Source: an uncultured Verrucomicrobiota bacterium | GTDB taxonomy: Bacteria > Auribacterota > JABMQX01 | Length of the DNA: 64,000 nt | Reading direction: 5' to 3' | NCBI GenBank assembly: GCA_964516325.1 | Contig: CAZFAP010000001.1 | Location: 2,221 to 66,220, forward strand | Program-made: the position numbers and the translations under genes | The notes under the pieces: generated by a model | Databases searched by the model: none | Seen by the model: the letters and a program-made list of their open reading frames with translations, nothing else | What the model was told of the DNA's origin: nothing | In this document: piece after piece, positions 15,230 through 59,262 of the stretch | How positions within the stretch are numbered: the first letter of the stretch is position 1 | Layout of the letters: the number at the start of each line of letters is the position of its first letter

Positions 15230-15878
15230 CACCGTTTTCAAGAGCACGCCTGACTTTCTCCTCCGAGGAGGGAAGCCGCTTCCCACTCCATCCCGGCACA
15301 ACAACCGAGCAGTGGTTTTGAGACGGGTCTTAAACACAGAGCGTGAGCGGCGGATCTGTCGGAGAGACTCTGCTGCCTGCCCCCGGACTGACGCGCGCTC
15401 AGCACACGATCCAGGAGCATGTCGGTGCACCACCTTTCAGGCCGCAGACACCGAGGCAGCCTCGCCCTCCACGAATCTTCACCCGGCGGGTCTCATCTTC
15501 TCGCAAGAGGATAAGACATCTCCCCTTTGAGTATCACAAAGAAAATACCCTGAAGCCCGGCTTTTGTCAAGGCAGGAACCTCGATGGGGTGTGGCTCCAT
15601 TTGAGTGTCGCTGGCGTGGCACGTGTGCCAGATAGGGAGTGCAGTCCTGCCCAACATGAGGCTCTATGACGCCCCTTCAGGGCTGATAGAGGTGGGGCGG
15701 GGCGCTATCCTCAGGGCTTCGCCCTGGGCTAAGCTATCTCGCCCCGTTGGGGCCTACTCCCTTCTCCGTAGCCAAGCCCTGAAAGGGCGCGATAATGCGA
15801 TGCCACCATAATAGAGCCGCACCCTCGACGATGCTGATCTTCTGCTTTTTGCGTTTTTCTGCTATCATAGAGTAGTGC

Positions 15879-31907: not shown

Positions 31908-32630
31908 ATGGAAGCATTATCTCGTCGCGACGTGTTTAGACTGCTTGGCGCCTCCGCCGCATGGGCGTCCGCGATCAGTTTCTCGGAGAGGTCCGCGAAA
32001 GCCGAAACATCGGAAGCTCTCAGCATCGCGCCCTACAAGCTCCCCGATCTGCCCTATCCGGTTGACGCTCTCGAACCGCACCTCGACGCACACACGTTGA
32101 CCATCCATCACGACAAGCATCACGCTGCCTACGTGCAGGGCTTGAATGCAGCGCTCGTCGGATTGCAGGAGGCTCGAAAGAAAGGAGACTTTGCGGCAGT
32201 CCAGGCTCTATCCGGTGCGCTCGCGTTCCACGGGTCCGGGCACCTGCTGCACACGCTCCACTTCGCCAACCTTCACCCGAAGCCAGCCAGGCCGGCGGGC
32301 GCCTTGTCGGGCGCGATCGAGGCGCAGTTTGGCAGCCTCGATGCCTTCATCGCGCACCTTGTCGCCGCCGCGAATACCGTTGCGGGCAGCGGCTGGGGGA
32401 TTCTCGCTTACGAACCTGTCGGGCGACGCCTGCTGGTGCTTCAGGTTGAGAAGCATGAGAACCAGCTCGTGTGCGGCGCCATTCCTTTGCTCGTGATTGA
32501 TGTCTGGGAGCATGCCTATTACCTGAGCTATCAGAACCGGCGAGCGGATTATGTGAAGGCCATCATGAACGTCATTCACTGGGACGAAGTTGCCCGTCGG
32601 TTCGACGAGGCGAGGCGCATTCACGGCTGA
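31908..32630 (+). CDS. Fe/Mn superoxide dismutase with a Tat signal peptide
   Basis: SRRDVFRLLGASAAWASA Tat motif; SOD motifs HHDKHH and DVWEHAYY. Confidence 0.9.
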   Translation: MEALSRRDVFRLLGASAAWASAISFSERSAKAETSEALSIAPYKLPDLPYPVDALEPHLDAHTLTIHHDKHHAAYVQGLNAALVGLQEARKKGDFAAVQALSGALAFHGSGHLLHTLHFANLHPKPARPAGALSGAIEAQFGSLDAFIAHLVAAANTVAGSGWGILAYEPVGRRLLVLQVEKHENQLVCGAIPLLVIDVWEHAYYLSYQNRRADYVKAIMNVIHWDEVARRFDEARRIHG

Positions 32631-32721
32631 ACTTGCACGGCGGTGTTTTAGAATCGGGGCGGCTCGCAGCGGTCCATGCGAAAAGTCTGCCGCGGGTTCT
32701 CAACGGTTCCCGGAGGACAAC

Positions 32722-34398
32722 ATGGCAAGTAAAACGTTCAACATCCTTGTGGGCGGAGAAGCCGGTCAGGGGCTGGTCACCGTCGGGGAATTGCTGACCC
32801 GGTGCCTCGTCCGCTCCGGTTATTTCGTCGTTGTCACTCAGACCTATCAATCGCGCATTCGCGGCGGGCACAATACGTTCGCCGTCCGTGTCAGCACAGA
32901 CCCAATCGTCGCTCCTCAAGAGCCCGTTGATCTCCTCGTCGCGCTGAATGCAGAGACCGTGAAGCTCCATCGAGAGGAACTGGTCCCCGACGGGCTGACC
33001 ATTGTTGACGAAGCCTTCGGCCTCACGGATGACTCCTGCCTGAAGGTTCCGTTCAAAGAGCTCTCCACCCGGAGGTCCACGAACATTGTGGCGCTTGCCG
33101 TCGTTGCGTCTTCGGTGGGACTCGACGAAAACCTCCTCTCCCGCACGATGGAGGAGTACTTCGGGAAGAAGGACCCCAAAGCCGCAGAAGAGAACCAGCA
33201 GGCGTTGAGGAGTTCGTTTCAGTGGTGCGCGGGTCGCCCAGCGAGGGTCAGCAAGCTGCCGTCCGTTCAAAATCCTCCAAAGCGCCTGATGATGAATGGA
33301 AATGAGGCGATTGCCTTGGGCGCCCTTTCCGCCGGGCTGAGGTTCTATTCCTTCTATCCCATGACTCCCTCCACCTCCATCGGGCAGTATCTTGCCGGAC
33401 AAGCAAAGCGGCTGGGCTTGATTGTCGAGCAGGGGGAGGATGAGATTGCCGTCATCAACATGGCGTTGGGCGCCTCCTTCGCCGGCGCCCCGAGCATGGT
33501 TTCGACCTCTGGCGGCGGATTTGCGTTGATGGTCGAGGGGGTCAGTCTTGCGGGAATGACCGAGACGCCCGTCGTAATTGTCGTTGGGCAGCGCCCCGCC
33601 CCAGCAACCGGACTCCCGACCCGCACGGAGCAGGCGGACCTCGAGTTCGTCCTCCACGCCGGACACGGCGAATTTCCGCGGGCGATCTTCTCTCCGGGTA
33701 CCGTCGAGGAGTGTTTCTATCTGACGCGTAAGGCGTTTGACCTCGCCGAGCGGTATCAGAGTCCAGTCTTCATCTTGACAGACCAATTCCTCGCCGATTC
33801 CTATCGTGCGGTCGCGCCCTTCGACTTGAAGGACCTCTCGCCCGTTCGTCCCGGAGTAGGGGAGGACGCGATTTCGCGCCCGTACAGAAGGCACGCGTTC
33901 ACGGAAAGCGGCGTCTCACCTCGCCTCCTTCCCGGTTTGACAGCACACCTTGTCGTCACCGACAGCGACGAGCACACCGAAGACGGGCACATAACGGAAG
34001 ACCTTTCCGTCCGGCGGCGGATGGTCCAAAAAAGGTTGAGAAAGCTGGAAGGAATTCGTCAGGACGTTACTCCGCCCGAGTTCCGTGGCGACGAGAATCC
34101 TGAACTCTTGCTCGTTTCATGGGGGAGCACAAAAGGCGCGGTCTGCGAAGCAGCTTCTCTCCTGAGGTTGCAGGGGCGTCGGGTTGTGGTGCTCCATTTT
34201 TCGCAGGTCTGGCCCATGGTCACCGACCAGGTCGTCCCGATTTTGGAAAAGGCTGGGGAGGTCGCCTGCGTGGAAGGAAATGCCACCGGTCAACTCGTAC
34301 GCTTGATCCGCCGTGAGACCGGTTTTGCCATCGAGAGGCGAATCCTCCGGTGCGACGGTTTGCCCTTCACGCCGGAATCAATCGTTCGTGAGCTGTAA
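32722..34398 (+). CDS. korA: 2-oxoacid:ferredoxin oxidoreductase, fused gamma/alpha subunit (two-subunit OFOR type)
   Basis: N-terminal gamma-like domain (ILVGGEAGQG) followed by an alpha domain (GNEAIALGALSAG...YPMTPST); 558 aa from ATG 32722. Confidence 0.85.
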   Translation: MASKTFNILVGGEAGQGLVTVGELLTRCLVRSGYFVVVTQTYQSRIRGGHNTFAVRVSTDPIVAPQEPVDLLVALNAETVKLHREELVPDGLTIVDEAFGLTDDSCLKVPFKELSTRRSTNIVALAVVASSVGLDENLLSRTMEEYFGKKDPKAAEENQQALRSSFQWCAGRPARVSKLPSVQNPPKRLMMNGNEAIALGALSAGLRFYSFYPMTPSTSIGQYLAGQAKRLGLIVEQGEDEIAVINMALGASFAGAPSMVSTSGGGFALMVEGVSLAGMTETPVVIVVGQRPAPATGLPTRTEQADLEFVLHAGHGEFPRAIFSPGTVEECFYLTRKAFDLAERYQSPVFILTDQFLADSYRAVAPFDLKDLSPVRPGVGEDAISRPYRRHAFTESGVSPRLLPGLTAHLVVTDSDEHTEDGHITEDLSVRRRMVQKRLRKLEGIRQDVTPPEFRGDENPELLLVSWGSTKGAVCEAASLLRLQGRRVVVLHFSQVWPMVTDQVVPILEKAGEVACVEGNATGQLVRLIRRETGFAIERRILRCDGLPFTPESIVREL

Positions 34399-34415
34399 CT
34401 CAAGACGAGGGCAAA

Positions 34416-35267
34416 ATGGTAACCATTGATGACTACGGAAAATATGAAACGGCGTGGTGTCCCGGCTGTGGAAACTTCGGTATTCTGAGAGCCGTCAAGC
34501 AGGCGCTCCTTGCCAGCGGGATCGAGCCACACCAGGTTCTTTTCGTCTCCGGCATCGGGCAGGCGGCAAAGGCCCCGCATTACCTGAATGCCAATCTTTT
34601 CAACGGTCTTCACGGGCGCTCCCTCCCGGTGGCGACGGGCGCCAAGCTCGCCAATCCCCGGCTCGTCGTCATCGTCGAAAGCGGCGATGGCTGCACCTAT
34701 GGCGAAGGCGGAAACCACTTCTTAGCCGCGATTCGCCGAAACATTGACCTTACGCTCCTCGTTCACAACAACCAGGTCTATGGCTTGACGAAAGGGCAGG
34801 CGAGCCCCACTTCGGAGGTCGGCTTCGTTACCAAGGCTCAGCCGGAGGGCGTCTTCGCCCAGCCCTTCAACCCGGTCGCAGTGGCCGTCGCTATGCACGC
34901 CGGATTTGTCGCGCGGAGCTTCGCCGGAATGCTCGACCATTTGGCGAAGATGATCCAGCAGGCAATTGCCCACCGGGGCCTCTCTCTTGTTGACATACTT
35001 CAACCATGTCCTTCGTTCAACAAGGTGAACACGTGGGAATGGTATCAGCGGCGGTGTTACGTTTTGCCGGAGGATCACGACCCCACGAGTTGGGAAGCCG
35101 CCATGAAGGTCGCCTATGAGTGGGGCGACCGCATCCCCGTCGGGATTATTTATCGAAACAATAGACCGCCGTTCGAGGAGAACTCTTCCGTTTTGCGTCA
35201 GGGACCGCTCGTTGGGCGAGACCTCGATAAGGAAGCGATGTCTGCGACTCTGGAGCGATTTGCCTGA
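34416..35267 (+). CDS. korB: 2-oxoacid:ferredoxin oxidoreductase beta subunit (TPP-binding)
   Basis: WCPGCGNFGIL, GDGCTYGEGGNH TPP motif. Confidence 0.9.
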   Translation: MVTIDDYGKYETAWCPGCGNFGILRAVKQALLASGIEPHQVLFVSGIGQAAKAPHYLNANLFNGLHGRSLPVATGAKLANPRLVVIVESGDGCTYGEGGNHFLAAIRRNIDLTLLVHNNQVYGLTKGQASPTSEVGFVTKAQPEGVFAQPFNPVAVAVAMHAGFVARSFAGMLDHLAKMIQQAIAHRGLSLVDILQPCPSFNKVNTWEWYQRRCYVLPEDHDPTSWEAAMKVAYEWGDRIPVGIIYRNNRPPFEENSSVLRQGPLVGRDLDKEAMSATLERFA

Positions 35268-38229: not shown

Positions 38230-39438
38230 ATGAGCGGACCATTTAAAGCAACCCAGGTGACAGAGAACATTTTTTGGGTGGGCGCCATTGACTGGGCCCT
38301 GCGAAATTTCCACGGCTACGCCACCAGCCGCGGCACGACCTACAACGCCTACCTCATCCTCGCCGACAAAATCACCTTGGTTGATACGGTCAAGGCGCCC
38401 TTCAAGGATGAAATGCTTTCCCGAATCGCCTCGGTCATTGATCCTGCGAAGGTTGACTACATCATCTCGAATCACTCGGAGATGGACCATTCGGGATGCC
38501 TCCCAGAGGTCATCGAGCGAATTAAGCCTCAAAAAGTCCTCGCTTCCGAGAACGGCGTCAAGGCTCTTCGAGAGCATTTCCACACTTCCCATGACATCGT
38601 CGCGGTCAGGGACGGCGAGAGCCTCAGCCTCGGGAACATGACCCTCTCCTTCATGGAGACCCGGATGCTCCACTGGCCCGATAGCATGTTCACCTATGTT
38701 GCGGAGCAGCAGTTCCTCTTCTCGCAGGATGCCTTTGGCATGCACCTCGCCAGCACCGAAAGATTTGACGATGAGCTTGACAGCCAGGCCCTCGAATACG
38801 AAGCCGCCAAATACTACGCCAACATCCTCCTGCCGTTTTCCTCCTTCGTCACGAGGCTTTTGGAGAAGCTTGGGAAGCTCGGTATCCCAATCAGGACGAT
38901 GGCGCCGGACCATGGCCCCATCTGGCGCAAAGACGTTAACAAAATAGTCGAGCTTTATTCCCGCTGGGCTGCTCAGAAGCCCACCATGAAGGCCGTCATC
39001 ACCTACGACACCATGTGGCAGAGCACCGCCCTCATGGCGCGGGCGATATGCGACGGACTGGTATCCGGCGGGGTCAGCGTCAAAGTCATGCCCCTCGATG
39101 CCTGCCACCGCAGCGATGTCGCCACGGAAGTCTTCGACGCCGGCGCTCTCCTGGTCGGCTCACCCACCATGAACAACACGATCTTCCCGACGGTCGCGGA
39201 CGTTATGACGTATCTCAGGGGTCTGAAGCCCCGGAACAAAATCGGTGCGGTCTTCGGCTCCTACGGCTGGAGCGGCGAAGCGGTGAAGCAACTGGGAAAT
39301 ATGCTCGCCGAGATGAAGATCGAGCTGGTCGGCGAACCGATCAACGCGAAATACGTGCCCGATGGCGAAACCCTCGCCAGGTGCTTTGCTCTCGGCGCCC
39401 TCGTCGCCGAAAAGCTCAGGGGGAAATGCGGCCCCTGA
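38230..39438 (+). CDS. Flavodiiron protein (FprA / rubredoxin:oxygen oxidoreductase type O2/NO reductase)
   Basis: Metallo-beta-lactamase-like diiron domain (HSEMDHSG) followed by a flavodoxin domain (VFGSYGWSGEA). Confidence 0.9.
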   Translation: MSGPFKATQVTENIFWVGAIDWALRNFHGYATSRGTTYNAYLILADKITLVDTVKAPFKDEMLSRIASVIDPAKVDYIISNHSEMDHSGCLPEVIERIKPQKVLASENGVKALREHFHTSHDIVAVRDGESLSLGNMTLSFMETRMLHWPDSMFTYVAEQQFLFSQDAFGMHLASTERFDDELDSQALEYEAAKYYANILLPFSSFVTRLLEKLGKLGIPIRTMAPDHGPIWRKDVNKIVELYSRWAAQKPTMKAVITYDTMWQSTALMARAICDGLVSGGVSVKVMPLDACHRSDVATEVFDAGALLVGSPTMNNTIFPTVADVMTYLRGLKPRNKIGAVFGSYGWSGEAVKQLGNMLAEMKIELVGEPINAKYVPDGETLARCFALGALVAEKLRGKCGP

Positions 39439-46708: not shown

Positions 46709-47905
46709 TTACGGCTTTCGGACTTCCGCTATCTTGCTGGTGTTCGGGTCTATCACCCAAACCTCCGAAAATCCTTCGGGCGCCAGCCGCCGCTCAAAGG
46801 GGGCCTTCATCCTGAAGTAAACAGCCAATTCCACTTTCAGAAGAATGTTTCCACCCTCATATCCCAGACGATCGAATGCCTCTTTTTCTATTTTGTCAGC
46901 CACGACTCCGGGTTGAGCCTTGTACCACGGGAGATCCTGTTCTGGTCTGGCGTAGTGCCCGGCGAACTTGCTCGCGTCCTGAAAGTCCGCCGAATAGCCC
47001 TTCCAGAGTGCCTCGAAATCAAATTCTCGATCGTTTATGGTCAGGGTCGCCGCCTGCGACTCTCTGGCTCCCACGGAGTTGCCGACGACGCATACGTAGT
47101 TGCCTTCATCGCTCTTCTGGACCGACGAGATCGTGTATTCGGCCTGAACTGCGCCTTCGATCTTCTTACCGTCTTTCATCCACTCGTACGATGCGCCTCC
47201 CGCAGCCACAACATGGAACGTAACCGGATTCCCCACTTCCGCCGTCGTAGATTTGGGTTGAGATGAGATGATGGGGAGTCGCCCCGTCTTGAAACTGTAC
47301 GCCTGCTTTTCCATGCGGTTGCGGGCAAGGTCTGTTGCCTCGACCATCACCGTCACGGTCTGTCCTTCCTGGAAGTCTTCGGCTGGGTCGCAAGAAACCA
47401 GATACCCATTCTGGCTTTCGGTGATTTCAGGGTTCCCAGGCTGATCGTTCACCGTCATCGTGACTGTCTTCGCGTCCACTCCAATGCCGTCATCCTTGAC
47501 ATGCAGGGTGATCGCCGCGCCGATGGGAACGTTCTCTGCGTCGTTAGGTGGTGAAGGATTCGCTGTATAAGGGGGCCGAGTGTCCACGACCCTGACGGTT
47601 CTGGTCGTCCTCCTTTCATTTCCTGCGGAATCCTTGACTCTGTAAACCAACTTGTATTCGCCCAGCTTTGCATGGTCCACAGCCCCCTCGACGACCACCG
47701 CACTCGTAAGGTCTCCGCCGTCGCCGTCTTCGGCTGTGTACCCTGGCTCGCTGTAGGGACCATTCCCCATTTCCAGGGTCATGAAACCATCGTCCTTCAA
47801 TGTGAGCACTGGGGGAATGCTCTCGACGGCCTTATAGACGATGCCCATGCCGCCTTCGCCCAACTTCTCAAGGACGCGGTAATGGGAGATTTCTTGCCCG
47901 ATCAT
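46709..47905 (-). CDS. Chimeric ORF. The first 26 residues are the N-terminus of a Hanks-type Ser/Thr kinase (glycine-rich loop). They are followed directly by a DUF5011 domain, an Ig-like I-set domain and a C-terminal domain of unknown function.
   Basis: MIGQEISHYRVLEKLGEGGMGIVYKA, then IPPVLTLKDDGFMTLEMG...PGYTAEDGDGGDLTS...YKLVYRVKDSAGNERRTTRTVRVVD (DUF5011), then an Ig-like stretch (EGNYVCVVGNSVG). It has no signal peptide. Confidence 0.6.
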   Translation of the reverse strand: MIGQEISHYRVLEKLGEGGMGIVYKAVESIPPVLTLKDDGFMTLEMGNGPYSEPGYTAEDGDGGDLTSAVVVEGAVDHAKLGEYKLVYRVKDSAGNERRTTRTVRVVDTRPPYTANPSPPNDAENVPIGAAITLHVKDDGIGVDAKTVTMTVNDQPGNPEITESQNGYLVSCDPAEDFQEGQTVTVMVEATDLARNRMEKQAYSFKTGRLPIISSQPKSTTAEVGNPVTFHVVAAGGASYEWMKDGKKIEGAVQAEYTISSVQKSDEGNYVCVVGNSVGARESQAATLTINDREFDFEALWKGYSADFQDASKFAGHYARPEQDLPWYKAQPGVVADKIEKEAFDRLGYEGGNILLKVELAVYFRMKAPFERRLAPEGFSEVWVIDPNTSKIAEVRKP

Positions 47906-48370: not shown

Positions 48371-49729
48371 CTATTGAGACGTGACCCGGTAGTAGCGTTC
48401 GCCGATGCCGGTGATGTCTTCGCCTTCCCAACCGCTATTCGTGGTGGGCCAGGCGCCGGGAGCATTCTGCCAGATTGCGCCAGCCAGCTTCTCGGTCCAC
48501 TGCACGGAGTATCGCCCGTTGCCGAACCTTTGCCACGTGAGCGAGACTTTGTTTTCGGTCCTCGTGATGCTCGGCGGGTAAAGCGGCGCCAGACCGTTCT
48601 TCCAGCGGTTGACCATGGCGTTGATCCACGGGTAGTACGAACGCTGGGGCATGCCGGTGTGGCTCTGACTCCAACTGTCAGTGCCGCCGCAGAAGACCAC
48701 GGCGGTGCGGTGGTTGAGCCATGGCTCGGGGTGGTCGTCGTTCCCCGCGTTCCTGCCAAGCTCCTCGGAGTCGGTGGTGTCAAGCGTCTCGTCGGGAAAA
48801 CCTCCCACCGGAAACCAGGCGTATTCGGCGTCCAGGACGGGATCATCGCTCGTCCAGGCGATGGCGTTGTGCCAGTCAAAGGCGCAGACGTTCGTGAGTG
48901 GATAGTCCTCAAAAGTGTCGGTGCCCGTCGGGTCGTATTCGTGCAGCCAGTCCTCTCGAAGCCAGCGTGCGAATTCGCGGCACTTGTGCGCCTCGTCGTC
49001 TGACAGATAGCACATCGGCGGCGCCTGCATGGCGATGAAAAGAAGGTCAGGATGCTCCACAAAGAGGTTCAACATTCCCCTGTACGCGACCTTGAGTTGG
49101 GCCAGGGAGGAATCCGCCCCACTCCAGTCGCCATGACTCCAGTGGGTGTCTGTGTAGCCGTCCTCTACGGAATCCGTGGAGTTGAGATAGACGAAATTAT
49201 TGACGCCGTTGTCCGAGTAGGGGGTGCCGCCGATTACGCTTCCCTCAGCATTGTAAACCGTATCGTAGCTGGACACAGACGACCCGGGATAGCATGGTTT
49301 GAACATGATGATGTCCATCTGTTCCGCGCGATATTCATACCACGCCAACATGAAGTCGTCGGGCGGAATCTCCCGGACCGGACTCACCCCGGGACCTTCA
49401 TAGCGATAGTACTTGTCGCTGAGCTTGACGCCGAGCTCCCGCTGGAACCGCTTGTACCAGTGCCGGTAGTCCGTATAATTGTTCCCATAAACGTACTGTT
49501 CGCCGATGCGGGAGTGCAATGTGTAGCCGAGGTTTTCCAGTGCGACGCTCAGTCCGTCGTCCAAAAGGTTGCCTCCGGAAGAGTGATGAAAGAAGTTGAA
49601 CACCATGTCGCCGATATTCTCCGGTGTGTCGAAATTGTATTCGTCGAATTCCGCCCAGAGAGGCGGAGCGAAAAGGAATACGAAAAGGGAGACGGCGACC
49701 GCAAGGTCAAAACGGAAACCATTTCTCAT
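48371..49729 (-). CDS. Secreted hypothetical protein (452 aa) carrying the conserved C-terminal ~65-aa domain shared with two other secreted proteins
   Basis: Signal peptide MRNGFRFDLAVAVSLFVFLFAPPLWA; C-terminus VSLTWQRFGNGRYSVQW...YYRVTSQ. The overlapping track ORF 47902..49062 is an antisense artefact rich in R/S/T/P. Confidence 0.7.
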   Translation of the reverse strand: MRNGFRFDLAVAVSLFVFLFAPPLWAEFDEYNFDTPENIGDMVFNFFHHSSGGNLLDDGLSVALENLGYTLHSRIGEQYVYGNNYTDYRHWYKRFQRELGVKLSDKYYRYEGPGVSPVREIPPDDFMLAWYEYRAEQMDIIMFKPCYPGSSVSSYDTVYNAEGSVIGGTPYSDNGVNNFVYLNSTDSVEDGYTDTHWSHGDWSGADSSLAQLKVAYRGMLNLFVEHPDLLFIAMQAPPMCYLSDDEAHKCREFARWLREDWLHEYDPTGTDTFEDYPLTNVCAFDWHNAIAWTSDDPVLDAEYAWFPVGGFPDETLDTTDSEELGRNAGNDDHPEPWLNHRTAVVFCGGTDSWSQSHTGMPQRSYYPWINAMVNRWKNGLAPLYPPSITRTENKVSLTWQRFGNGRYSVQWTEKLAGAIWQNAPGAWPTTNSGWEGEDITGIGERYYRVTSQ

Positions 49730-50203
49730 GATCCGGTCCTCCTGTTATCTGCTGCCAGGCCGCAGTGCGAACAATTCGCTAAAGTCTGCTGGACGCCATG
49801 GAATCTGGGGGAGAGAGCCTGTCCCTGGGTTAGCCACTATGAATGATAATCGTGACGTGGCTGGGCGGCAGCGCGCCGCCCGCCTGCCCACCTCAGCACC
49901 AGACACTGCACCCACCCTACCCCGCTGGAAATGCCGTGAGCAAAATGTGGGTCGTTCGGATACTCCACTCAGCCACCGGTTGGCGTACACGGAACGCATT
50001 CTATCAAAATGGAACTCGCCAGCGAAAGAAGGCTTCCATCGCCACCCCTCCCGAATTCGGGCGTTGCGTATGGGTCAGAAGTGGGTTATCCTCTGACTCA
50101 GTGGGAAGTGTCGTCTCGTTTCCTGTTGACCAGGCCAGAGTCATCGCTGGTCATCCGTGAAAAGGTACCGAAGGCGATCACCGCGATAGGAGGGGGCGCA
50201 ACG

Positions 50204-52438
50204 ATGCTCAGAGCCACTCTTTTCGCCATATTTCTCTTCGCCCTTGTCTTCATTCCCCTGGGCTTGACTGGGGCAGATTGGTGCGTGGCGACTGCGCCGG
50301 CAGGGTCCGATTCAAATGCCGGGCGGGAGGATGGGCCTTGGGGGACGATTCTGAACGGCCTCCTCGGGGGTAATTCCGCTCGTGGGGACACGCCGCTTCC
50401 TTCCTCGAGCACGCCGACTTGCTCCTCCGTCGAGGACTGGATGGAAGGCGCCGCTGGCCCGGACAGTGCTGCCTCGAAACCGTGCGTTAGCGCATCCATG
50501 AGCATGGACGTGGGAGCGGACGAGACCCAGGACACGACCCCTCCGATGATCACTCTGTCGGGCGCGAATCCGATGACTCTTGAGGCGGGGACGGCTTACT
50601 ATGAGCCGGGGTACTATGCAGAGGACAATGTGGACGGCAACATCACCTATTGGGTAGTGGTCTCCGGTTGGGTGAACTACACCACGCCCGGCACCTACAC
50701 CTTGCGCTACAATGTCCGCGATTCCTCGGGCAATGCCGCCGAGGAGAAAACCCGGACAGTCAAAGTCGTGGATACCATCCCCCCGGTTATCACTTTGTAT
50801 GGCGATACTTCGATGGTGCTCCAGGCGGGAACTTCGTATTCCGAGCCCGGTTACACGGCGACGGACAACTGCGACGGAAACATTACGTGGTGGGTGACCG
50901 TCAGCGGCTATGTCTATTCCAGCGTGCTGGGGAGCTACACCCTCCGCTACAACGTCAAGGACTCGTCCGGGAATCCCGCTGAAGAGAAAATCCGCACGGT
51001 GAACGTGGTGGACACCACTGCTCCGGTGATTGCGCTCTCAGGGGATAATCCCATGACGCTGGAGGTAGGGAACTGGTACGTGGAGCCCGGCTACAGCGCC
51101 ACGGACAACTATGACGGCGACATCACCTCGAGGGTGTTTGTAACCGGCTCCGTGGACCACAGAACCGTCGGCAGCTATAAGATTCATTACAGCGTGACCG
51201 ACTCCTCTGGGAACCCCGCCCAAGAGAAGACGAGGACCGTCAATGTTGTGGACAGGACGCCGCCGGTGATCACCCTTTTGGGCGACAATACCATGAGATT
51301 GGAATGCGCGACTTCTTACTCGGAGCCGGGATACACCGCCACGGACAATTACGATGGGGATATGACGCTGGACGTTGTGGTCACGGGCACAGTAGATCAC
51401 ACGGCTCCGGGCAGTTACACCCTGAGATACAACGTGAAGGATTCTAACGGGAATGCGGCGGAAGAGAAGATCAGAGTTGTTACCGTCGTGGACATCACTC
51501 CTCCAGTGATTGTTCTGGCGGGCGATAACCAGATCACCCTGGAAGTCGGGACTCCCTATATTGAGCCGCGCTACACCGCGACCGACAACTGCGAGGGCGA
51601 CGTTACATCAGACGTGGTGGTCAGCGGCTCCGTGGATCCTACCGCCGTCGGAAGCTACACCTTGCGCTACAACGTAACCGACTGGAGCGGGAATTACGCC
51701 GAGCAGAAGACCCGGACAATCAACATTGTGGACACGACCCGGCCGGTAATCACGCTCTCAGGGGATAATCCCATGACGCTGGAGGTGGGGACCTGGTACA
51801 CGGAGCCAGGCTACGGCGCCATAGACAACGGCGACGGCGACATCACCTCGAAGGTGTTCGTGACCGGCTCGGTGGATCACAGAAGCCCGGGCAGGTACAC
51901 CCTTTACTACAACGTCACAGACTCTTCCGGCAACGTCGCCGAACAGAGAACCCGAACGGTGAACGTCGTGGACACGACCCCTCCCGTGATCACGTTGGAG
52001 GGAAAACGCTTCATGGTCCTCGACCTGGGGACACCCTATGTGGAACCGGGCTACGTCGCGACCGACAATTACGATTATGACCTGACGTGGGACGTCGTCG
52101 TTACTGGCTCGGTTGACCATACGGTCGCCGGAACCTATCTCCTCTACTACAACGTTGTGGATTCCTCCGCCAACCCCGCGAACCAGAAGACCCGCACCGT
52201 CAAGGTCGTCGAGGCGACCGTGTTCGACATCGTGGAGATCATTCAGGTGACGGAAGGAGGGGTGCAGGTGACCTGGGTCAGCCAGCCCGGCGCCAGCTAT
52301 TCCATCTGGTCGTGCAGCAGCCTCGCTCGTGAACTCTGGCACGAGGAAACGACCGTGGAATCCCAGGGCAGAATGACAATCTGGTCCGACCCCGACACAG
52401 CCTCCTCCAATAAGTTCTACAAGGTTCAGTTGAAGTGA
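50204..52438 (+). CDS. Secreted protein with 7 tandem DUF5011 (Ig-like) repeats and the conserved C-terminal domain
   Basis: AGGAGGGGG RBS and signal peptide MLRATLFAIFLFALVFIPLGLTGA. Seven 80-aa repeats of P.I.L.GDN.M.LE.G..Y.EPGY.A.DN.DG.IT..V.V.GSVD....G.Y.L.YNV.DSSGN.A.E.TRTV.VVD. The C-terminus reads VQVTWVSQPGASYSIWS...FYKVQLK. Confidence 0.8.
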   Translation: MLRATLFAIFLFALVFIPLGLTGADWCVATAPAGSDSNAGREDGPWGTILNGLLGGNSARGDTPLPSSSTPTCSSVEDWMEGAAGPDSAASKPCVSASMSMDVGADETQDTTPPMITLSGANPMTLEAGTAYYEPGYYAEDNVDGNITYWVVVSGWVNYTTPGTYTLRYNVRDSSGNAAEEKTRTVKVVDTIPPVITLYGDTSMVLQAGTSYSEPGYTATDNCDGNITWWVTVSGYVYSSVLGSYTLRYNVKDSSGNPAEEKIRTVNVVDTTAPVIALSGDNPMTLEVGNWYVEPGYSATDNYDGDITSRVFVTGSVDHRTVGSYKIHYSVTDSSGNPAQEKTRTVNVVDRTPPVITLLGDNTMRLECATSYSEPGYTATDNYDGDMTLDVVVTGTVDHTAPGSYTLRYNVKDSNGNAAEEKIRVVTVVDITPPVIVLAGDNQITLEVGTPYIEPRYTATDNCEGDVTSDVVVSGSVDPTAVGSYTLRYNVTDWSGNYAEQKTRTINIVDTTRPVITLSGDNPMTLEVGTWYTEPGYGAIDNGDGDITSKVFVTGSVDHRSPGRYTLYYNVTDSSGNVAEQRTRTVNVVDTTPPVITLEGKRFMVLDLGTPYVEPGYVATDNYDYDLTWDVVVTGSVDHTVAGTYLLYYNVVDSSANPANQKTRTVKVVEATVFDIVEIIQVTEGGVQVTWVSQPGASYSIWSCSSLARELWHEETTVESQGRMTIWSDPDTASSNKFYKVQLK
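50534..52213 (+). repeat. Intragenic tandem array of 7 DUF5011 repeats, 240 bp each. Repeats 3 (51014-51253) and 6 (51734-51973) are ~85% identical at the DNA level.
   Basis: Direct comparison of 51040-51250 with 51760-51970 shows long identical runs, for example CTCTCAGGGGATAATCCCATGACGCTGGAGGT and GACATCACCTCGA. Confidence 0.6.
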
Positions 52439-52693: not shown

Positions 52694-54961
52694 TTAGGGG
52701 CTTGACCGCGGTTCCACGCCGAGGAGGCGCCGGACAAAGAAATCCTGGCGGCGCCGGCTGGCATAGGGTGTCTCAGCGGCTCCGTGTCCCATCCCCGGCG
52801 CCACCAGCAGGTCAAAATCCTTATTTGCCTTTATCAGGGCGTTGACAACTTGCATGGTGGAAGCGGGGTCCACGTTCTTGTCCATCTCGCCGACGATGAG
52901 CAGCAATTTGCCTTCGAGCCTGTGCGCCTGGGTCACGTTCGACTGCTCCTCATAATGCGAGCCAACGGGCCAGCCCATCCAGAGTTCGTTCCACCAGATT
53001 TTGTCCATTCGGTTATCGTGGCAGCCGCAATCGCAAACGGCAACCTTGTAGAAGTCGCCGTGGGCGAGTAGCGCGCGCAGGGCGCTTTGCCCGCCTGCTG
53101 ACCCGCCATAGATGCCCACGCGCGTGACGTCCATATAATGGTATTTCGCCGCGGCGGCTTTGATCCAGAGGATGCGGTCGGGGAAGCCGGAGTCGGCCAG
53201 GTTCTTCCAGCAAACGTCCTGGAATTTCTTGGAACGGTCGGATGTCCCCATACCGTCAATTTGGACAGCGATGAAACCGAGTTCCGCCATCCCCTGCGGG
53301 CCATGGTAAGACCTGAAACGCTTGGGCACAAATGAGCCTTGCGGTCCCGCATATATTTCTTCTATGACCGGGTAGGTTCTGTTTGGATCAAAGGTCGTCG
53401 GCCGGTAAATGACGCCATAGATGTCGGTCTGACCGTCGCGTCCTTTGGCAACGAAGCGCTCTGGCGCCTGCCAGCCGGTCTTGAGAAGCTCTGACCAATC
53501 GGCTCTCTCAAGCTCGCAGACGGGCTTTCCATCTTCGGAGCGTCGCAGTTCAATCACTGGCGGCATGTCCACTCGCGACCACGTGTCGAGGAAGAAGAGC
53601 CGGTCGGGGGAGTATTCAATCGAGTGCGTGCCCTCGCCCTCCGTGAGAACAAGCAGCCCACTGCCATCGAAATTGACCCGGCAGTAATGGATATGGTAAG
53701 GCTCCTGACCGGGATGTATGCCGCCCGCGTGAAACCAGATCTGCCGCTTCTCTTCGTCCACGTGGTCCACGCCGCGGACGACCCAGTCCCCCTTTGTGAT
53801 CTGGTTTTTTACGCTGCTCGTCTCGGCGTCGTAGAGGTACAGGTGGTTCCAGCCGTCCCGCTCCGACATCCAGATGATCTCTCGCGTCTCGTCAATGCGG
53901 TGCATGAACTGTTTGTGAGCGTAGTCAATGAATGTATCGCTTTGCTCGTCAATGATAGCGCGGGCCGCCCCTGTCTCAACATCAACCGCGATGACTCGCA
54001 GCACTTGGTGCCCGCGCTGGTTATAAACGAACGTAAACCGCCGGGAGTCGCTGTCCCATCGGAAGTCGCTCACACTCCACGGATTCGGAAAGAGCTCATT
54101 GCTCATGGGAATGTGCTTCCTCGCAGAGACATCGAAGAGTTGGGGCATGGAAATCGGGATGCGGTCGCCAGGTTTGGGATAGGTGAATGAGTGCAACCTC
54201 GGCTGAAGTTGGTCTTTCGGAGACGACTCGACGAAATAGACCTTACGGTTGTCCCCTTTCTTCGTGCGGAGAGCCACGAGCTTTTTTGAATCCGGCGACC
54301 AGAAAACCCTCCCGGAGTATTCGTCTTCCGGATTGCCGTCCGTGCTGAGGGAAAATTCCTCCCCCTCGTCGAGGTCGCGGACGTAAAGGTTGTGATCCTT
54401 GAAGAACGCGAGCCACTTGCCGTCGGGTGATTCATTCCGACGAGGCGGCGGCGACTTCTTGCTCTCTCTTTTCGTCGGCGCTTCCGAGGACTCGACCTCT
54501 GTCAACGAGTAGTCATCCAACCCACATTTCCACGCTTTGCCTTCCGCCTTGAATCGGACCGCGTTTTCACATTCGAGGAATTCGATCTCGTCTATCGGCA
54601 GTTGAGTTGCGGTGTATTCCTTGCCGGTCGTGCGGGACAGGGATTCTGCCAATTTGGCATGGTCGAAAGCAGGCTGGCGAGTCCCGTTGGCGGCGTCCAC
54701 GACGATGAACTCCTTTGCCTCTTGGGGCAAGTCATTGCGATACCAGAAGCGACTGTTGTTGGCGAACCAGCGCGGTTTAACACTCGCCTTGAATACCTTG
54801 TTCTCCGTCAGTTTGCGGAGGTTGTTAGCGCGTTCGTAGTCCGAGCGCGTGCCTTGTGCTTGCAAGGAACTCGGGGCCCCCGACAGCACAATCGAAGAAA
54901 GACAGACCACTGTGAAATAGGGGACTCTCACCGTTTCTCTCCCTCTTGGTTGAACAACCAT
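52694..54961 (-). CDS. S9-family serine peptidase, dipeptidyl-peptidase IV-like (beta-propeller plus alpha/beta-hydrolase)
   Basis: DPP-IV N-terminal propeller; GGSAGG nucleophile elbow; catalytic D and H positions in the C-terminal hydrolase domain; signal peptide-like N-terminus. Confidence 0.85.
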   Translation of the reverse strand: MVVQPRGRETVRVPYFTVVCLSSIVLSGAPSSLQAQGTRSDYERANNLRKLTENKVFKASVKPRWFANNSRFWYRNDLPQEAKEFIVVDAANGTRQPAFDHAKLAESLSRTTGKEYTATQLPIDEIEFLECENAVRFKAEGKAWKCGLDDYSLTEVESSEAPTKRESKKSPPPRRNESPDGKWLAFFKDHNLYVRDLDEGEEFSLSTDGNPEDEYSGRVFWSPDSKKLVALRTKKGDNRKVYFVESSPKDQLQPRLHSFTYPKPGDRIPISMPQLFDVSARKHIPMSNELFPNPWSVSDFRWDSDSRRFTFVYNQRGHQVLRVIAVDVETGAARAIIDEQSDTFIDYAHKQFMHRIDETREIIWMSERDGWNHLYLYDAETSSVKNQITKGDWVVRGVDHVDEEKRQIWFHAGGIHPGQEPYHIHYCRVNFDGSGLLVLTEGEGTHSIEYSPDRLFFLDTWSRVDMPPVIELRRSEDGKPVCELERADWSELLKTGWQAPERFVAKGRDGQTDIYGVIYRPTTFDPNRTYPVIEEIYAGPQGSFVPKRFRSYHGPQGMAELGFIAVQIDGMGTSDRSKKFQDVCWKNLADSGFPDRILWIKAAAAKYHYMDVTRVGIYGGSAGGQSALRALLAHGDFYKVAVCDCGCHDNRMDKIWWNELWMGWPVGSHYEEQSNVTQAHRLEGKLLLIVGEMDKNVDPASTMQVVNALIKANKDFDLLVAPGMGHGAAETPYASRRRQDFFVRRLLGVEPRSSP

Positions 54962-56898: not shown

Positions 56899-59262
56899 TC
56901 AAAACAATCGGTGCTCGGTTCTTTTTATAATCTCGTTCTGGAGGTCCGCGCCAAGCCCCACAAAATAGTCGCTGTAGCCGGCAACCCGTACAATCAGGTT
57001 TCGGTATTTCTCCGGATGCTTTTGCGCCTCACGCAGCGTTTCCGCCGTTACCACATTGAATTGGACGTGATGGCCGTCCATCCTGAAATACGTCCTGATA
57101 AGGTGGGCGAGCTTTGTGATCCCATCTTCGTCAGACAAAAGCTGAGGAGAGAACTTCTGGTTGAGGAGTGTCCCTCCCGTCTTGATGTGGTCCATTTTCG
57201 CCGCCGATTTGAGAACGGATGTCGGTCCATTGTGGTCCGCTCCCTGAACGGGTGAAATTCCTTCCGAGAGTGGCTCCATCGCATTCCTCCCGTCCGGAAG
57301 CGCCCCGACCGTCCGCCCAAAGTAAATATGAACGGTCGTTGGGAGGAGATTGATTCTGTGGCAGCCGCCTCGGGGGTTTGGCCGCCCATCAACGGCATCG
57401 TAGTACGCGTCGAATATTTGCTTCATTATCTCGTCGGCATAATCATCGTCGTTGCCGTATTTTGGCGTTTCGTATAAGAAGCGGTCTCTGAGGCTCTCGT
57501 CCTCGGCATAGTTGGTTTCCAGCGCCCGGAGCAGTTCTTTCATTGTGACATGTTTCTCGTCAAAGACATTATAGTTCACCGATGTCATCGCATCCGTCGC
57601 CGTCCCCAGCCCGACGCCTTGAATGTAGCTCGTGTTGTACCGCGCACCGCCGTCGTGGTAATCCTTCCCCTTCTCTATACAATCGTCAATGAGCAGCGAT
57701 AGGAAAGGTACGGGCACATACGTCGCGTACAGGCGCTCAATGATGTTGTTTCCCTTAATCTTGATGTCAATGAAGTGCCGCAACTGGATTCTGAACGCCG
57801 CAAACAGCTCATCAAATGTGCGAAATGAGGTGGGCTCCCCAGTCTCGACGCCGATTCTTTTGCCCGTTCCCGGATCCGCTCCGTTGTGCAGCGTGATCTC
57901 CAACACCTTAGGCAGATTGAAGTACCCGGTTAGAATGTAGGCTTCCTTTCCGAACGCGCCGCTTTCCACGCACCCGCTTGCCCCACCGCACCGCGCGTCT
58001 TCTATGGATTTTCGTTGCCGCATCAACTCCTGCACGATGGCATCCGTATTGAAAACCGAGGGCTGTCCAAAACCTGTCTTTACTATCTGAATAGCCCGCT
58101 TCAAGAAGCGATCGGGGTTCCTTTTGCTGAGTTGAATCATCGAACTGGGCTGGACGAGCCGCATCTCTTCGACGACGTCCAGAAGAACGTAAGAAAGCTC
58201 GTTCACGGCATCCGAGCCGTCCTGCTTTACCCCGCCCAGGTTGATCAGAGAGAAGTCCGTATAGGTGCTGCTTTCCTCCGCGGTAACGCCGACTTTCGGT
58301 GGCGCCGGGTGATTGTTGAACTTGATCCAGAAGGCCTGTAACAGTTCCCTTGCTTCCTCTTCGGTCAGAATCCCCGCTTCTATGTCTCGTTTGTAGAAGG
58401 GATATAGATGTTGGTCGAGTCTTCCCGGGTTGAACGAGTCCCAGGGATTTACTTCTGTGATCACGCCCACGTGCACGAACCAGTAATATTGAAGCGCCTC
58501 CCAAAACGTCTGCGGGGCATGGGCAGGGACTCTTCCGCAAATCTCCGCCATCTTCTCCAGCTCGTGTTTTCTTCTCGACTCCTTTTCTTTTTCCGCGAGT
58601 TCCTGAAGTCTCTCCGAATGGCGCCTGGCAAAAAGCATCAGCGCGTCGGCCGCGATGCTCATCGCCTTGAGTTCCTCGCTCTTATCATAAGCTTCTGGAT
58701 CAGTGTAATAATCCAATCGCTGCATGCTTCGACGGATGTCCTCCTTCAGGTCGAGAAAGCCCTTCCTGTAGATTTTGTCTCCCAGCGCGGTGTGTCCCGG
58801 CGCCCGCTGCTCCATGAACTCCGTGAAGACCCCGGCCTCATACGCCGCCTTCCAGTCCTCGGACATCTCCTGAAAGATGCGGTCTCTCATGGATTTCCCT
58901 GTCCAGTAGGGGATGATGCGGGTCTCATATATCCTTCTTGTCTCATCATCCACCGCGTATGGAATTCGCTCCCGAGAATGCAGAATTTCAAGGTCTTTCA
59001 GTGAGTGAATACATATTTCGGGATACGTGGGAGTCGCTTTAGGCTCCGGTCCTCTCTCCCCGACAATCAACTCGCCCTCGCCAATGTATAGCCTTTTGTT
59101 CTCGAGAATATGCTTGAATGCCAGCGCCCGCTTGACAGGGATGGACCCTTCTTCTGCTAAATCGCCTTGATAGAAATCTGTAATTAGGATTGCGCGTTCG
59201 AGGCAGATGCACGGCTTTCGACTGACACTTTGTTCTCGGAGCCTTTGTATCCTCTCGTTCAT
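56899..59262 (-). CDS. Glycyl radical enzyme of the eliminase/dehydratase class (Cys-x-Glu active site). Candidate trans-4-hydroxy-L-proline dehydratase (HypD-like); the substrate is not determinable from sequence alone.
   Basis: 787 aa; catalytic loop GASGCVESG (C-V-E, not the CC of PFL); C-terminal glycyl radical motif RVAGYSDYF. Confidence 0.85.
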   Translation of the reverse strand: MNERIQRLREQSVSRKPCICLERAILITDFYQGDLAEEGSIPVKRALAFKHILENKRLYIGEGELIVGERGPEPKATPTYPEICIHSLKDLEILHSRERIPYAVDDETRRIYETRIIPYWTGKSMRDRIFQEMSEDWKAAYEAGVFTEFMEQRAPGHTALGDKIYRKGFLDLKEDIRRSMQRLDYYTDPEAYDKSEELKAMSIAADALMLFARRHSERLQELAEKEKESRRKHELEKMAEICGRVPAHAPQTFWEALQYYWFVHVGVITEVNPWDSFNPGRLDQHLYPFYKRDIEAGILTEEEARELLQAFWIKFNNHPAPPKVGVTAEESSTYTDFSLINLGGVKQDGSDAVNELSYVLLDVVEEMRLVQPSSMIQLSKRNPDRFLKRAIQIVKTGFGQPSVFNTDAIVQELMRQRKSIEDARCGGASGCVESGAFGKEAYILTGYFNLPKVLEITLHNGADPGTGKRIGVETGEPTSFRTFDELFAAFRIQLRHFIDIKIKGNNIIERLYATYVPVPFLSLLIDDCIEKGKDYHDGGARYNTSYIQGVGLGTATDAMTSVNYNVFDEKHVTMKELLRALETNYAEDESLRDRFLYETPKYGNDDDYADEIMKQIFDAYYDAVDGRPNPRGGCHRINLLPTTVHIYFGRTVGALPDGRNAMEPLSEGISPVQGADHNGPTSVLKSAAKMDHIKTGGTLLNQKFSPQLLSDEDGITKLAHLIRTYFRMDGHHVQFNVVTAETLREAQKHPEKYRNLIVRVAGYSDYFVGLGADLQNEIIKRTEHRLF

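What the first reader, a model, noticed from the sequence alone, without database searches (positions are those of the whole stretch)
50534..52213. Near-identical 240-bp DUF5011 repeat copies inside one gene: a recombination / assembly-collapse hotspot
Repeats 3 and 6 of the seven-repeat array share long identical DNA runs at ~85% identity over ~210 bp, lying 720 bp apart. The remaining repeats are more diverged. This indicates a recent internal duplication. The repeat number is likely variable between strains, and short-read assemblies may have collapsed or mis-joined this region.
Basis: seen in the sequence. Interest (0 to 1): 0.5.

Follow-up and report, generated by a model that had tools for sequence, protein, structure and literature searches.

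The report
Diverged seven-domain Ig-like repeat gene
This is an ordinary secreted bacterial protein built from seven old, well-diverged copies of a known Ig-like domain; two copies share one ~150-bp patch of extra similarity from an old internal sequence exchange, too weak to make the gene a recombination hotspot or an assembly problem.

Summary
The seven-unit, exactly 240-bp-periodic array at 50534-52213 is real. It encodes seven PF16403 (formerly DUF5011) Ig-like domains of one 744-aa Sec-secreted protein (50204-52438, +).

Units 3 and 6, 720 bp apart, are the most similar pair, but they are not "near-identical":
- Identity is 77.5% over 240 bp and 79.5% over the best 210 bp.
- The longest exact runs are 34 and 19 nt.
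- The other 20 pairs are 59-69% identical.

The excess similarity is confined to unit nt 10-162 (51023-51175 vs 51743-51895). There identity is 84%, against 62% in the other pairs, and third codon positions match 76% vs 40%. A run test gives p=0.0002. The last 78 nt are at background. This is the footprint of an old (dS≈0.36) intragenic gene conversion or partial duplication, not a recent whole-unit duplication.

No k-mer of 35 nt or more is repeated in the gene, so short-read collapse is not expected. Only one identity block exceeds the bacterial minimal recombination segment.

No close ortholog exists in any collection searched, so strain-level repeat counts are untestable. More distant family members do differ by whole units.

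Among 86 homologous multi-unit proteins, more than half have a more similar unit pair. Verdict: ordinary, low interest.

The parts
50188..50193 (+). Shine-Dalgarno-like AGGAGG, 10 nt upstream of the ATG
   Evidence: Read directly from the sequence. Supports 50204 as the start rather than 50009.
50204..52438 (+). CDS of the 744-aa secreted protein with seven Ig-like domains (stop codon included)
   Evidence: ORF list. The exact 744-aa product exists as an NCBI gene call, P0001, a singleton cluster on a 112-kb contig.
50204..50275 (+). Probable Sec signal peptide (MLRATLFAIFLFALVFIPLGLTGA)
   Evidence: Inferred from the sequence: a basic n-region, a hydrophobic core and a small-residue TGA site. 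Aligns to the N-terminus of P0085. No lipobox. No signal-peptide predictor was available.
50276..50533 (+). N-terminal ~86-aa region: remnant of a beta-helix cap motif, then a Ser/Thr/Pro-rich linker. No recognisable passenger domain.
   Evidence: BLASTP against P0085 residues 5-69, E=1e-7. No Pfam hit even at E<=10.
50534..50773 (+). PF16403 unit 1
50774..51013 (+). PF16403 unit 2
51014..51253 (+). PF16403 unit 3
   Evidence: Sister of unit 6 in the unit tree.
51254..51493 (+). PF16403 unit 4
51494..51733 (+). PF16403 unit 5
51734..51973 (+). PF16403 unit 6
51974..52213 (+). PF16403 unit 7
   Evidence: The AF2 model is an Ig-like beta-sandwich that matches BT2262 and 2kpn.
51023..51175 (+). 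Conversion / partial-duplication tract, copy in unit 3 (unit nt 10-162)
   Evidence: 84.3% identical to 51743-51895, against a mean of 62.1% (max 68.6%) in the other 20 pairs. Third codon positions match 76.5% vs 39.8%. dS is 0.355 vs at least 1.05.
51743..51895 (+). Conversion / partial-duplication tract, copy in unit 6
51033..51066 (+). Longest exact repeat in the gene (34 nt), identical to 51753-51786
   Evidence: It is the only source of repeated k-mers at k>=21, and nothing is repeated at k>=35.
51753..51786 (+). Second copy of the 34-nt exact repeat
52214..52435 (+). C-terminal ~74-aa beta-sandwich module ending KFYKVQLK. No Pfam or NCBIfam model.
   Evidence: Conserved in P0079, P0120, P0057, P0085, P0015 and P0089 (E 8e-31 to 1e-38), more weakly in P0090, P0101 and P0109 (E 3e-25 to 4e-22). 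AF2 gives six strands, block-mean pLDDT ~81-92. A profile finds 5129 representative proteins, mostly with the module at the extreme C-terminus. No family hit.

Best explanation
The flagged region is the coding sequence for seven tandem Ig-like domains (Pfam PF16403, Bact_surface_Ig-like, formerly DUF5011).

Domain order of the protein:
- a Sec signal peptide;
- a short, degenerate N-terminal region;
- the seven beads-on-a-string domains;
- a small C-terminal beta-sandwich module ending in KFYKVQLK.

Shown:
- The array is old. Units differ by 31-41% at the DNA level, with saturated synonymous sites.
- The one exception is a ~153-bp tract in the 5' two-thirds of units 3 and 6. It is 84% identical, with dS about 0.36.
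- The downstream third of the two units is no more alike than any other pair.
- Units 3 and 6 belong to a unit subtype ('GTWYTEPGY...DGDITSRV.V.GSVDH') that is expanded in tandem and varies in copy number in distant relatives.

Inferred:
- The tract is the footprint of one old non-reciprocal exchange between the two units, either a gene conversion or a partial duplication.
- The array works as an extended spacer. It holds the protein's ends apart outside the cell, as PF16403 or related Ig-like domains do in characterised enzymes and adhesins.

The array is not currently a recombination hotspot and is not prone to short-read assembly collapse.
For: - Array and domain identity.
- Start codon and SD.
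- Pairwise DNA and protein matrices.
- Mosaic similarity, codon-level and run tests.
- dS 0.355 in the tract, against at least 1.05 or saturated elsewhere.
- Units 3 and 6 are each other's nearest neighbours among 73 units from 14 proteins, next to the TWYTEPGY subtype.
- That subtype is tandem, 78-88% identical in DNA, and present in 4/3/3/2/2 copies in relatives. P0033 and P0041 differ by one unit.
- No repeated k-mer of 35 nt or more.
- Ig-like fold of unit 7 and beta-sandwich CTD.
- PDB sequence relatives are the BT2262 Ig-like domain, the MmChi60 Ig-like linker domains and the 2kpn Ig-like domain.
- Ordinariness: 55% of 86 homologous multi-unit proteins have a more similar unit pair, and 36% have a pair at 90% or more.
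Against: - No reads are available, so a collapsed extra copy of some unit cannot be excluded from sequence alone. Such a copy would be invisible in the assembly.
- No ortholog is available to polarise or date the exchange.
- The tract boundary is statistical. Tract vs remainder gives Fisher p=0.006, and the 5' edge at nt 10 rests on few sites.
- The 3' third is the most conserved part of the domain in all units, which lowers the power to see excess similarity there. However, third-position identity there (42%) is below background (47%).
- The spacer function is inferred from homology and architecture only. No adhesive or catalytic domain and no known anchor was found.
Confidence: 0.8

Rival explanations
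1. A whole 240-bp unit was duplicated (unit 3 to 6 or the reverse, or within a larger block). The 3' third was later overwritten by conversions from other units or diverged faster.
For: - Units 3 and 6 are sisters over the whole unit in the protein tree.
- The 3' 78 nt of unit 6 are closest to unit 2, at 79%. This could be a second conversion.
- Whole-unit gain and loss is documented in relatives.
Against: - The 3' third shows no residual excess at synonymous sites (third positions 42% vs 47% background).
- Offset-720 identity outside the tract is at background, so no block duplication of units 1-3 to 4-6 occurred.
- The unit 6 / unit 2 similarity is within about 2 SD of background over only 78 nt.
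Confidence: 0.15
2. The gene is an actively length-variable 'Periscope'-type surface stalk. Units 3 and 6 mediate frequent in-frame gain or loss of three units between strains.
For: - The 34-nt identical block slightly exceeds the bacterial MEPS.
- Unit number varies from 1 to 14 across proteins with the same C-terminal module, and by one unit between 90%-identical relatives.
Against: - The Periscope criterion is tandem repeats with at least 80% protein identity (PMC8201768). Here adjacent units are 60-67.5% identical and the best pair is 76% and non-adjacent.
- The flanks of the 34-mer are mismatched, which by established knowledge triggers mismatch-repair anti-recombination (PMC8918686).
- dS of 0.36 shows the two copies have coexisted for a long time without homogenisation.
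Confidence: 0.07
3. The extra similarity, or the array itself, is an assembly artefact: a chimeric join, or a collapse of strain variants or of truly identical units.
For: - The source is evidently a metagenome-type contig (singleton NCBI protein on a 112-kb contig).
- A collapse would leave an in-frame array.
- In relative L014 the contig ends inside the neighbouring CTD-bearing gene.
Against: - Both copies are present, each with distinct flanks and 24 differences within the tract.
- No repeated k-mer of 35 nt or more exists.
- The frame and the 240-nt register are intact throughout.
- Composition is uniform across the gene.
- More similar units (up to 88%) were resolved in comparable assemblies.
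Confidence: 0.03
4. The similarity of units 3 and 6 reflects only shared protein-level constraint (the same functional subtype) plus codon bias, with no DNA-level exchange.
For: Both units carry the conserved subtype motif that is also seen in unrelated organisms.
Against: - Synonymous sites are also shared. In the tract, 79% of conserved residues use the identical codon, against 41% in the other pairs (p=1e-6).
- The tract is only 67-71% identical in DNA to same-subtype units of other organisms.
Confidence: 0.02

Closest known systems
Tandem PF16403 (Bact_surface_Ig-like / DUF5011) arrays, including LapB-type 80-residue repeats (NCBIfam NF033932) and OmpL47-type domains (NF047446)
   Same: - An 80-aa Ig-like unit repeated head-to-tail in a secreted protein.
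- Pfam score 488.5 bits over 7 units.
- LapB_rpt_80 scores 110.8 bits and the OmpL47 barrel domain 69.1 bits, both above their cut-offs.
   Different: - No LPXTG anchor, unlike Listeria LapB. The C-terminus is KFYKVQLK, read directly from the sequence.
- The full-length OmpL47 equivalog is far below its cut-off (50 vs 250 bits).
- No adhesive head domain was detected.
Ig-like spacer domains of Moritella marina chitinase MmChi60 (PDB 4hmc) and the N-terminal Ig-like domain of Bacteroides BT2262 (5fq3/5fq7); Big_3 domain 2kpn
   Same: - Same fold and detectable sequence homology: phmmer E 3e-9 to 1e-7, and Foldseek TM 0.75 / rmsd 2.5 A to 5fq7_H.
- In MmChi60 the domains link a catalytic domain to a binding domain. 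That role is taken from my own knowledge of the deposited structure papers.
   Different: - Those proteins have one or two such domains next to a defined catalytic or binding partner.
- Here there are seven domains and no recognisable partner domain.
Periscope Proteins (SasG, Rib, Sgo_0707; Whelan et al. 2021, PMC8201768)
   Same: - A secreted protein dominated by a tandem array of one small beta-rich domain.
- Whole-unit copy-number differences occur among relatives of the family.
   Different: - The defining high inter-repeat identity is absent. The criterion is at least 80% protein identity with near-identical DNA; here units are 60-67.5% identical when adjacent, and 76% for the best pair.
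- No known wall anchor.
- No strain series is available to test length variation.
T9SS cargo proteins with PF16403 arrays and a Por_Secre_tail CTD (e.g. P0048, P0013 in this search)
   Same: - Same overall architecture: a PF16403 array followed by a ~75-aa C-terminal beta-sandwich.
   Different: - The window's C-terminal module does not match PF18962/TIGR04183 or any other Pfam or NCBIfam model.
- It belongs to a different, FYR[VIL]-terminated family.

Membership tests
Pfam PF16403 Bact_surface_Ig-like (ex-DUF5011) | HMM score above the gathering threshold (27 bits) | tested here: met
   488.5 bits, E 4e-150, 7 stretches.
Pfam PF16403 Bact_surface_Ig-like (ex-DUF5011) | Ig-like beta-sandwich fold | tested here: met
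   AF2 model of unit 7 (model mean pLDDT 85). Foldseek hits 5fq7_H (TM 0.75) and 2kpn (TM 0.66).
Periscope Proteins (PMC8201768) | [quoted passage not shown] | tested here: not met
   Adjacent units are 60.0-67.5% identical. The best pair (units 3 and 6, non-adjacent) is 76.2% in protein and 77.5% in DNA. The criterion is quoted.
Periscope Proteins (PMC8201768) | Repeat number varies between closely related strains | not testable with these tools
   No ortholog was found in 5.8e9 proteins, GTDB species genomes or JGI metagenomes. The syntenic positions in the nearest relatives hold other genes.
Fibrillar adhesin-like proteins (PMC8286594) | Tandem stalk domains | tested here: met
   Seven contiguous PF16403 units.
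Fibrillar adhesin-like proteins (PMC8286594) | At least one known adhesive domain | tested here: not met
   Pfam finds no domain in residues 1-110 even at E<=10, and none in the CTD.
Fibrillar adhesin-like proteins (PMC8286594) | Recognised cell-surface anchor (LPXTG, T9SS CTD, autotransporter barrel, etc.) | tested here: not met
   No such Pfam or NCBIfam hit. No LPXTG in the sequence (translation).
T9SS cargo | C-terminal Por_Secre_tail domain (PF18962 / TIGR04183) | tested here: not met
   No hit for the whole protein or for the isolated CTD. Homologues P0048 and P0013 do have it.
Recombination-prone direct repeat (RecA-dependent) | Blocks of perfect identity at or above MEPS (at most ~30 bp in bacteria), ideally many or long | tested here: inconclusive
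   There is a single 34-nt block. The next longest run is 19 nt. MEPS value from PMC8918686. The criterion is formally met once, which is far from a hotspot.
Assembly-collapse-prone repeat | Exact repeats longer than the assembler's k-mer or the read length | tested here: not met
   No repeated k-mer at k>=35 in the gene, and no gene 25-mer occurs elsewhere in the window.

The most novel reading that the evidence does not exclude
The seven-domain array may be the length-adjustable stalk of a large, undescribed class of secreted proteins. On this reading, their conserved C-terminal beta-sandwich, which ends in FYR[VIL] plus 2-5 residues and has no Pfam or NCBIfam model, is a lineage-specific export or surface-attachment signal.

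What fits:
- The module sits where Bacteroidota homologues carry the T9SS sorting domain.
- It is found at the extreme C-terminus of proteins from 58 to 3330 aa.
- Those proteins carry unrelated passengers: beta-helix, M23 peptidase, and 1-14 PF16403 units.

If this is right, unit gain, loss and conversion, as seen between units 3 and 6 and between P0033 and P0041, would tune how far the passenger projects.
Probability: 0.15. Interest if true: 0.45.

Novelty: new member of a known kind. Interest (0 to 1): 0.1.

Why it matters
- For annotation and assembly quality control, the result is reassuring. The array can be taken at face value as a 7-domain gene. The sequence gives no reason to suspect collapse, and it should not be flagged as a contingency or hypervariable locus.
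- Biologically, it is one more example of how tandem Ig-like stalk arrays evolve. Whole-unit gain and loss occurs in some lineages. Here there was an occasional short conversion tract, followed by long divergence that keeps neighbouring domains dissimilar.
- The only element that might repay further work is the unmodelled FYRV-terminated C-terminal module, which is widespread and almost always terminal.

Tried and rejected
1. Finding orthologs to compare repeat counts.
- A protein search of 5.8e9 sequences found no hit above 65% local identity other than the protein itself.
- An exact-sequence contig lookup found nothing on record.
- A GTDB species-genome scan returned 2 loci, the best at 65%.
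- A metagenome scan returned 6 loci, all at 61% or less.
- The source genome itself is in neither contig collection.

2. Synteny through the neighbouring DPP-IV peptidase.
- Relatives at 79-80% identity keep the MFS-DPPIV gene pair.
- The downstream slot differs: an amidohydrolase in L013, and a different passenger with the same type of CTD in L014. L011 and L012 have an unrelated context.
- So there is no positional ortholog.

3. Three-unit block duplication (units 1-3 to 4-6). Rejected: units 1 vs 4 are 62.5% identical and 2 vs 5 are 65.4%, and the offset-720 profile is flat outside the tract.

4. Import of the tract from another organism's gene. Rejected: the best foreign unit is only 71% identical in the tract.

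5. Protein-constraint-only explanation. Rejected by the synonymous-site tests.

6. Assigning the CTD to a known family. Pfam at E<=1 and NCBIfam at E<=1 gave nothing meaningful. A literature search for the terminal motif returned only unrelated engineering papers.

7. Promoter and terminator consensus scans around the gene were uninformative: 0 promoter-like sites, and terminator-like sites at the shuffle expectation.

8. Organism identity was not resolved. The window has only a tRNA-Leu. Named DPP-IV homologues at ~72-74% identity come from Planctomycetota and Verrucomicrobiota MAGs, which is only a hint.
Full report
**What is at the coordinates**

The window holds an ORF at 50009-52438 (+). 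The biologically sensible start is the ATG at 50204. It is preceded by AGGAGG at 50188-50193 and followed by a typical signal peptide. The resulting 744-aa product is identical to an existing NCBI gene call (P0001), a singleton cluster from a 112-kb contig.

The repeat finder shows direct-repeat families spaced at exactly 240 nt. Slicing the gene in frame from 50534 gives seven 80-aa units ending at 52213, with no indels. Pfam assigns all seven to PF16403, Bact_surface_Ig-like, the former DUF5011 (488.5 bits, 7 stretches). NCBIfam's LapB_rpt_80 and OmpL47-type domain models also pass their cut-offs.

**Checking the observation**

The full pairwise matrix gives:

| Pairs | DNA identity | Protein identity |
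|---|---|---|
| 20 of the 21 unit pairs | 59.2-69.2% | 57.5-67.5% |
| Unit 3 (51014-51253) vs unit 6 (51734-51973), 720 nt apart | 77.5% | 76.2% |

- The best 210-nt window is 79.5% identical. About 85% is reached only over ~150 nt, and 92% over 60 nt.
- The 'long identical runs' are one of 34 nt (51033-51066 = 51753-51786) and one of 19 nt. Nothing else exceeds 8 nt.
- Tandem Repeats Finder does not see the array at all at the DNA level.

**The similarity is a mosaic**

Splitting the unit gives a sharp picture:

| Measure | Unit nt 10-162 (51023-51175 vs 51743-51895), units 3 vs 6 | Same segment, other 20 pairs | Unit nt 163-240, units 3 vs 6 | Same segment, other 20 pairs |
|---|---|---|---|---|
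| DNA identity | 84.3% | mean 62.1%, max 68.6% | 67.9% | mean 68.3% |
| Third-codon-position identity | 76.5% | 39.8% | 42% | 47% |
| Identical codons at conserved residues | 31/39 (79%) | 41% (binomial p=1e-6) | 6/18 | 47% |
| dS (Nei-Gojobori) | 0.355 | at least 1.05 or saturated | saturated | median 1.48 (min 0.63), some pairs saturated |

A Sawyer-type test finds 27 consecutive concordant polymorphic sites. The next best pair has 11. The global p is 0.0002 from 10,000 permutations.

- The offset-720 identity profile is flat outside the tract, so there was no three-unit block duplication.
- The tract is closer between units 3 and 6 (84%) than to any unit of five related genes (at most 71%). 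It therefore arose inside this gene.

The best reading is a single old, non-reciprocal exchange of about 150 bp between the two units: a gene conversion or a partial duplication. The alternative is a whole-unit duplication whose 3' third was later overwritten. This cannot be excluded, but nothing at synonymous sites supports it.

**Hotspot or assembly hazard?**

- The only repeated k-mers of 21 nt or more in the gene come from the single 34-nt run. None exist at k>=35, and no 25-mer of the gene recurs elsewhere in the window.
- Reads of 100-150 nt, and the larger k values of metagenome assemblers, span this easily.
- In related metagenome contigs, same-subtype units that are 78-88% identical, with exact runs up to 43 nt, were assembled as distinct copies.
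- For recombination, bacterial RecA-dependent exchange needs a block of perfect identity (MEPS) of at most about 30 bp, and mismatched flanks provoke abortion by mismatch repair (PMC8918686). One 34-nt block flanked by 16%-diverged sequence is a minimal substrate, not a hotspot.
- A dS of 0.36 shows the two copies have coexisted for a long time without homogenising or being lost.
- Read depth cannot be examined here, so a collapsed extra copy of some unit cannot be formally excluded. The sequence gives no positive sign of one.

**Related sequences**

No close ortholog exists.
- The best non-self hits among 5.8 billion proteins are 55-65% identical over the repeat region only.
- Scans of GTDB species genomes and of JGI metagenomes found nothing above 65% and 61%.
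- I also approached through synteny. The convergent neighbour, a DPP-IV/S9 peptidase (52694-54961, -), has 79-80% identical relatives. L013 and L014 keep the MFS-DPPIV pair. Downstream, L013 has an amidohydrolase. L014 has a different passenger that ends in the same kind of C-terminal module.
- The gene therefore sits in a variable slot, and strain-level repeat counts cannot be compared.

- A neighbour-joining tree of 73 units from 14 proteins places units 3 and 6 as sisters. They lie next to a 'GTWYTEPGY...DGDITSRVWV.GSVDH' subtype.
- That subtype is tandemly expanded to 4, 3, 3, 2 and 2 copies in P0033, P0041, P0027, P0082 and P0095.
- P0033 and P0041 are 90% identical and differ by exactly one 80-aa unit.

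**How ordinary is it?**

I analysed 86 multi-unit homologues from the first search.
- The median best-pair unit identity is 78%.
- 55% of the proteins have a more similar pair than this gene.
- 36% have a pair at 90% or more, and a dozen have 100% identical units (for example P0054 and P0094). Those are the genuinely collapse-prone genes.

The 'Periscope Protein' class requires tandem repeats of at least 80% protein identity (PMC8201768). This gene has 60-67.5% between neighbours and does not qualify.

**What the protein is and how it probably works**

Anatomy:
- a signal peptide;
- about 86 residues whose start aligns to the signal peptide plus beta-helix cap of P0085 (E 1e-7), although the helix itself is missing and Pfam finds nothing;
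- seven Ig-like units;
- a 74-aa C-terminal module.

An AlphaFold model of unit 7 plus the C-terminal module (pLDDT 85) gives two consecutive beta-sandwiches. Foldseek's top hits are the BT2262 Ig-like domain (TM 0.75), the Big_3 domain 2kpn and the MmChi60 Ig-like linkers. After those come generic tandem Ig/Fn3 stalks such as Rib and intimin.

No adhesive or catalytic domain was found, and no LPXTG, lipobox, T9SS CTD or other anchor. I infer a secreted, extended beads-on-a-string spacer. Secretion, extension and any binding function are inferences, not shown.

**The C-terminal module (noticed in passing)**

- It is conserved in proteins with other N-terminal passengers and 1-14 PF16403 units.
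- A profile finds 5129 representative proteins at E<=1e-3.
- Of the best 145 hits, 129 have a copy within 6 residues of the C-terminus, and 116 of those tails carry an FYR[VIL]-type motif.
- Bacteroidota-type homologues carry a T9SS sorting domain in the same position.
- A diverged copy ends the divergently transcribed neighbour at 48371-49729.
- This hints at a sorting or attachment role. However, the module also occurs in internal tandem copies, so it may be just a common Fn3-like cap.

**Verdict**

The array and the outlier pair are real, but they are not near-identical. The gene is a new, orphan member of a well-known kind of protein. Interest is low.

Noticed in passing
window 52214-52435 (+); also 48374-48607 (-) and L014 9122-9350 (-): A ~75-aa C-terminal beta-sandwich module ending in FYR[VIL]xxx has no Pfam or NCBIfam model. 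A profile finds 5129 representative proteins. In 129 of the best 145 hits it lies within 6 residues of the C-terminus. The host proteins are 58-3330 aa long and carry unrelated passengers (beta-helix, M23 peptidase, 1-14 PF16403 units). It sits where Bacteroidota homologues carry the T9SS CTD, so it may be an undescribed sorting or anchoring domain.
   Followed up: partly
window 50276-50533 (+): The N-terminal region aligns to the signal peptide plus beta-helix cap of P0085 (E 1e-7). It also aligns weakly (E 0.009) to the end of that protein's beta-helix. This looks as if the helix passenger had been deleted, leaving a 'passenger-less' stalk.
   Followed up: partly
window 46709-47905 (-) and 48371-49729 (-): Two adjacent genes upstream appear to encode related secreted proteins. 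One has a single PF16403 domain plus Big_5 and Ig_3. The other has no Pfam domain, but its C-terminus is a diverged copy of the FYRV module (YYRVTSQ). Together with the flagged gene they form a small cluster of surface or secreted protein genes.
   Followed up: partly
window 9833-15433 (-): A 1866-aa protein with 8 BACON_2 repeats, a right-handed beta-helix and a BNR/Asp-box. Its DNA repeats are also diverged: the best family is 74% identical over 81 nt.
   Followed up: partly
window 51896-51973 vs 50936-51013: The 3' 78 nt of unit 6 are most similar to the same part of unit 2 (79%, the highest of all pairs in that segment). This is a weak hint of a second, independent conversion. It is not significant on its own.
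   Followed up: partly
window 25197-26009 (+), 28865-30379 (+), 32590-35267 (+), 38230-39438 (+), 56899-59262 (-): The gene content points to an anaerobe: an encapsulin shell protein (Linocin_M18), a multihaem cytochrome c, two pyruvate:ferredoxin oxidoreductase subunits, a flavodiiron-type protein and a PFL-like glycyl radical enzyme.
   Followed up: no
L005 2152-8358: The 4-unit relative P0120 lies next to phage-like genes: likely portal and large terminase by my reading of the ORFs, plus a DNA methylase-like ORF. There is no synteny with the window.
   Followed up: no
L009 / L001 (P0033 vs P0041): These two gene products are 90% identical, come from different metagenomes and differ by exactly one 80-aa PF16403 unit. 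The units of the expanded subtype are 78-88% identical in DNA. This is a genuine case of repeat-number change in this domain family.
   Followed up: yes
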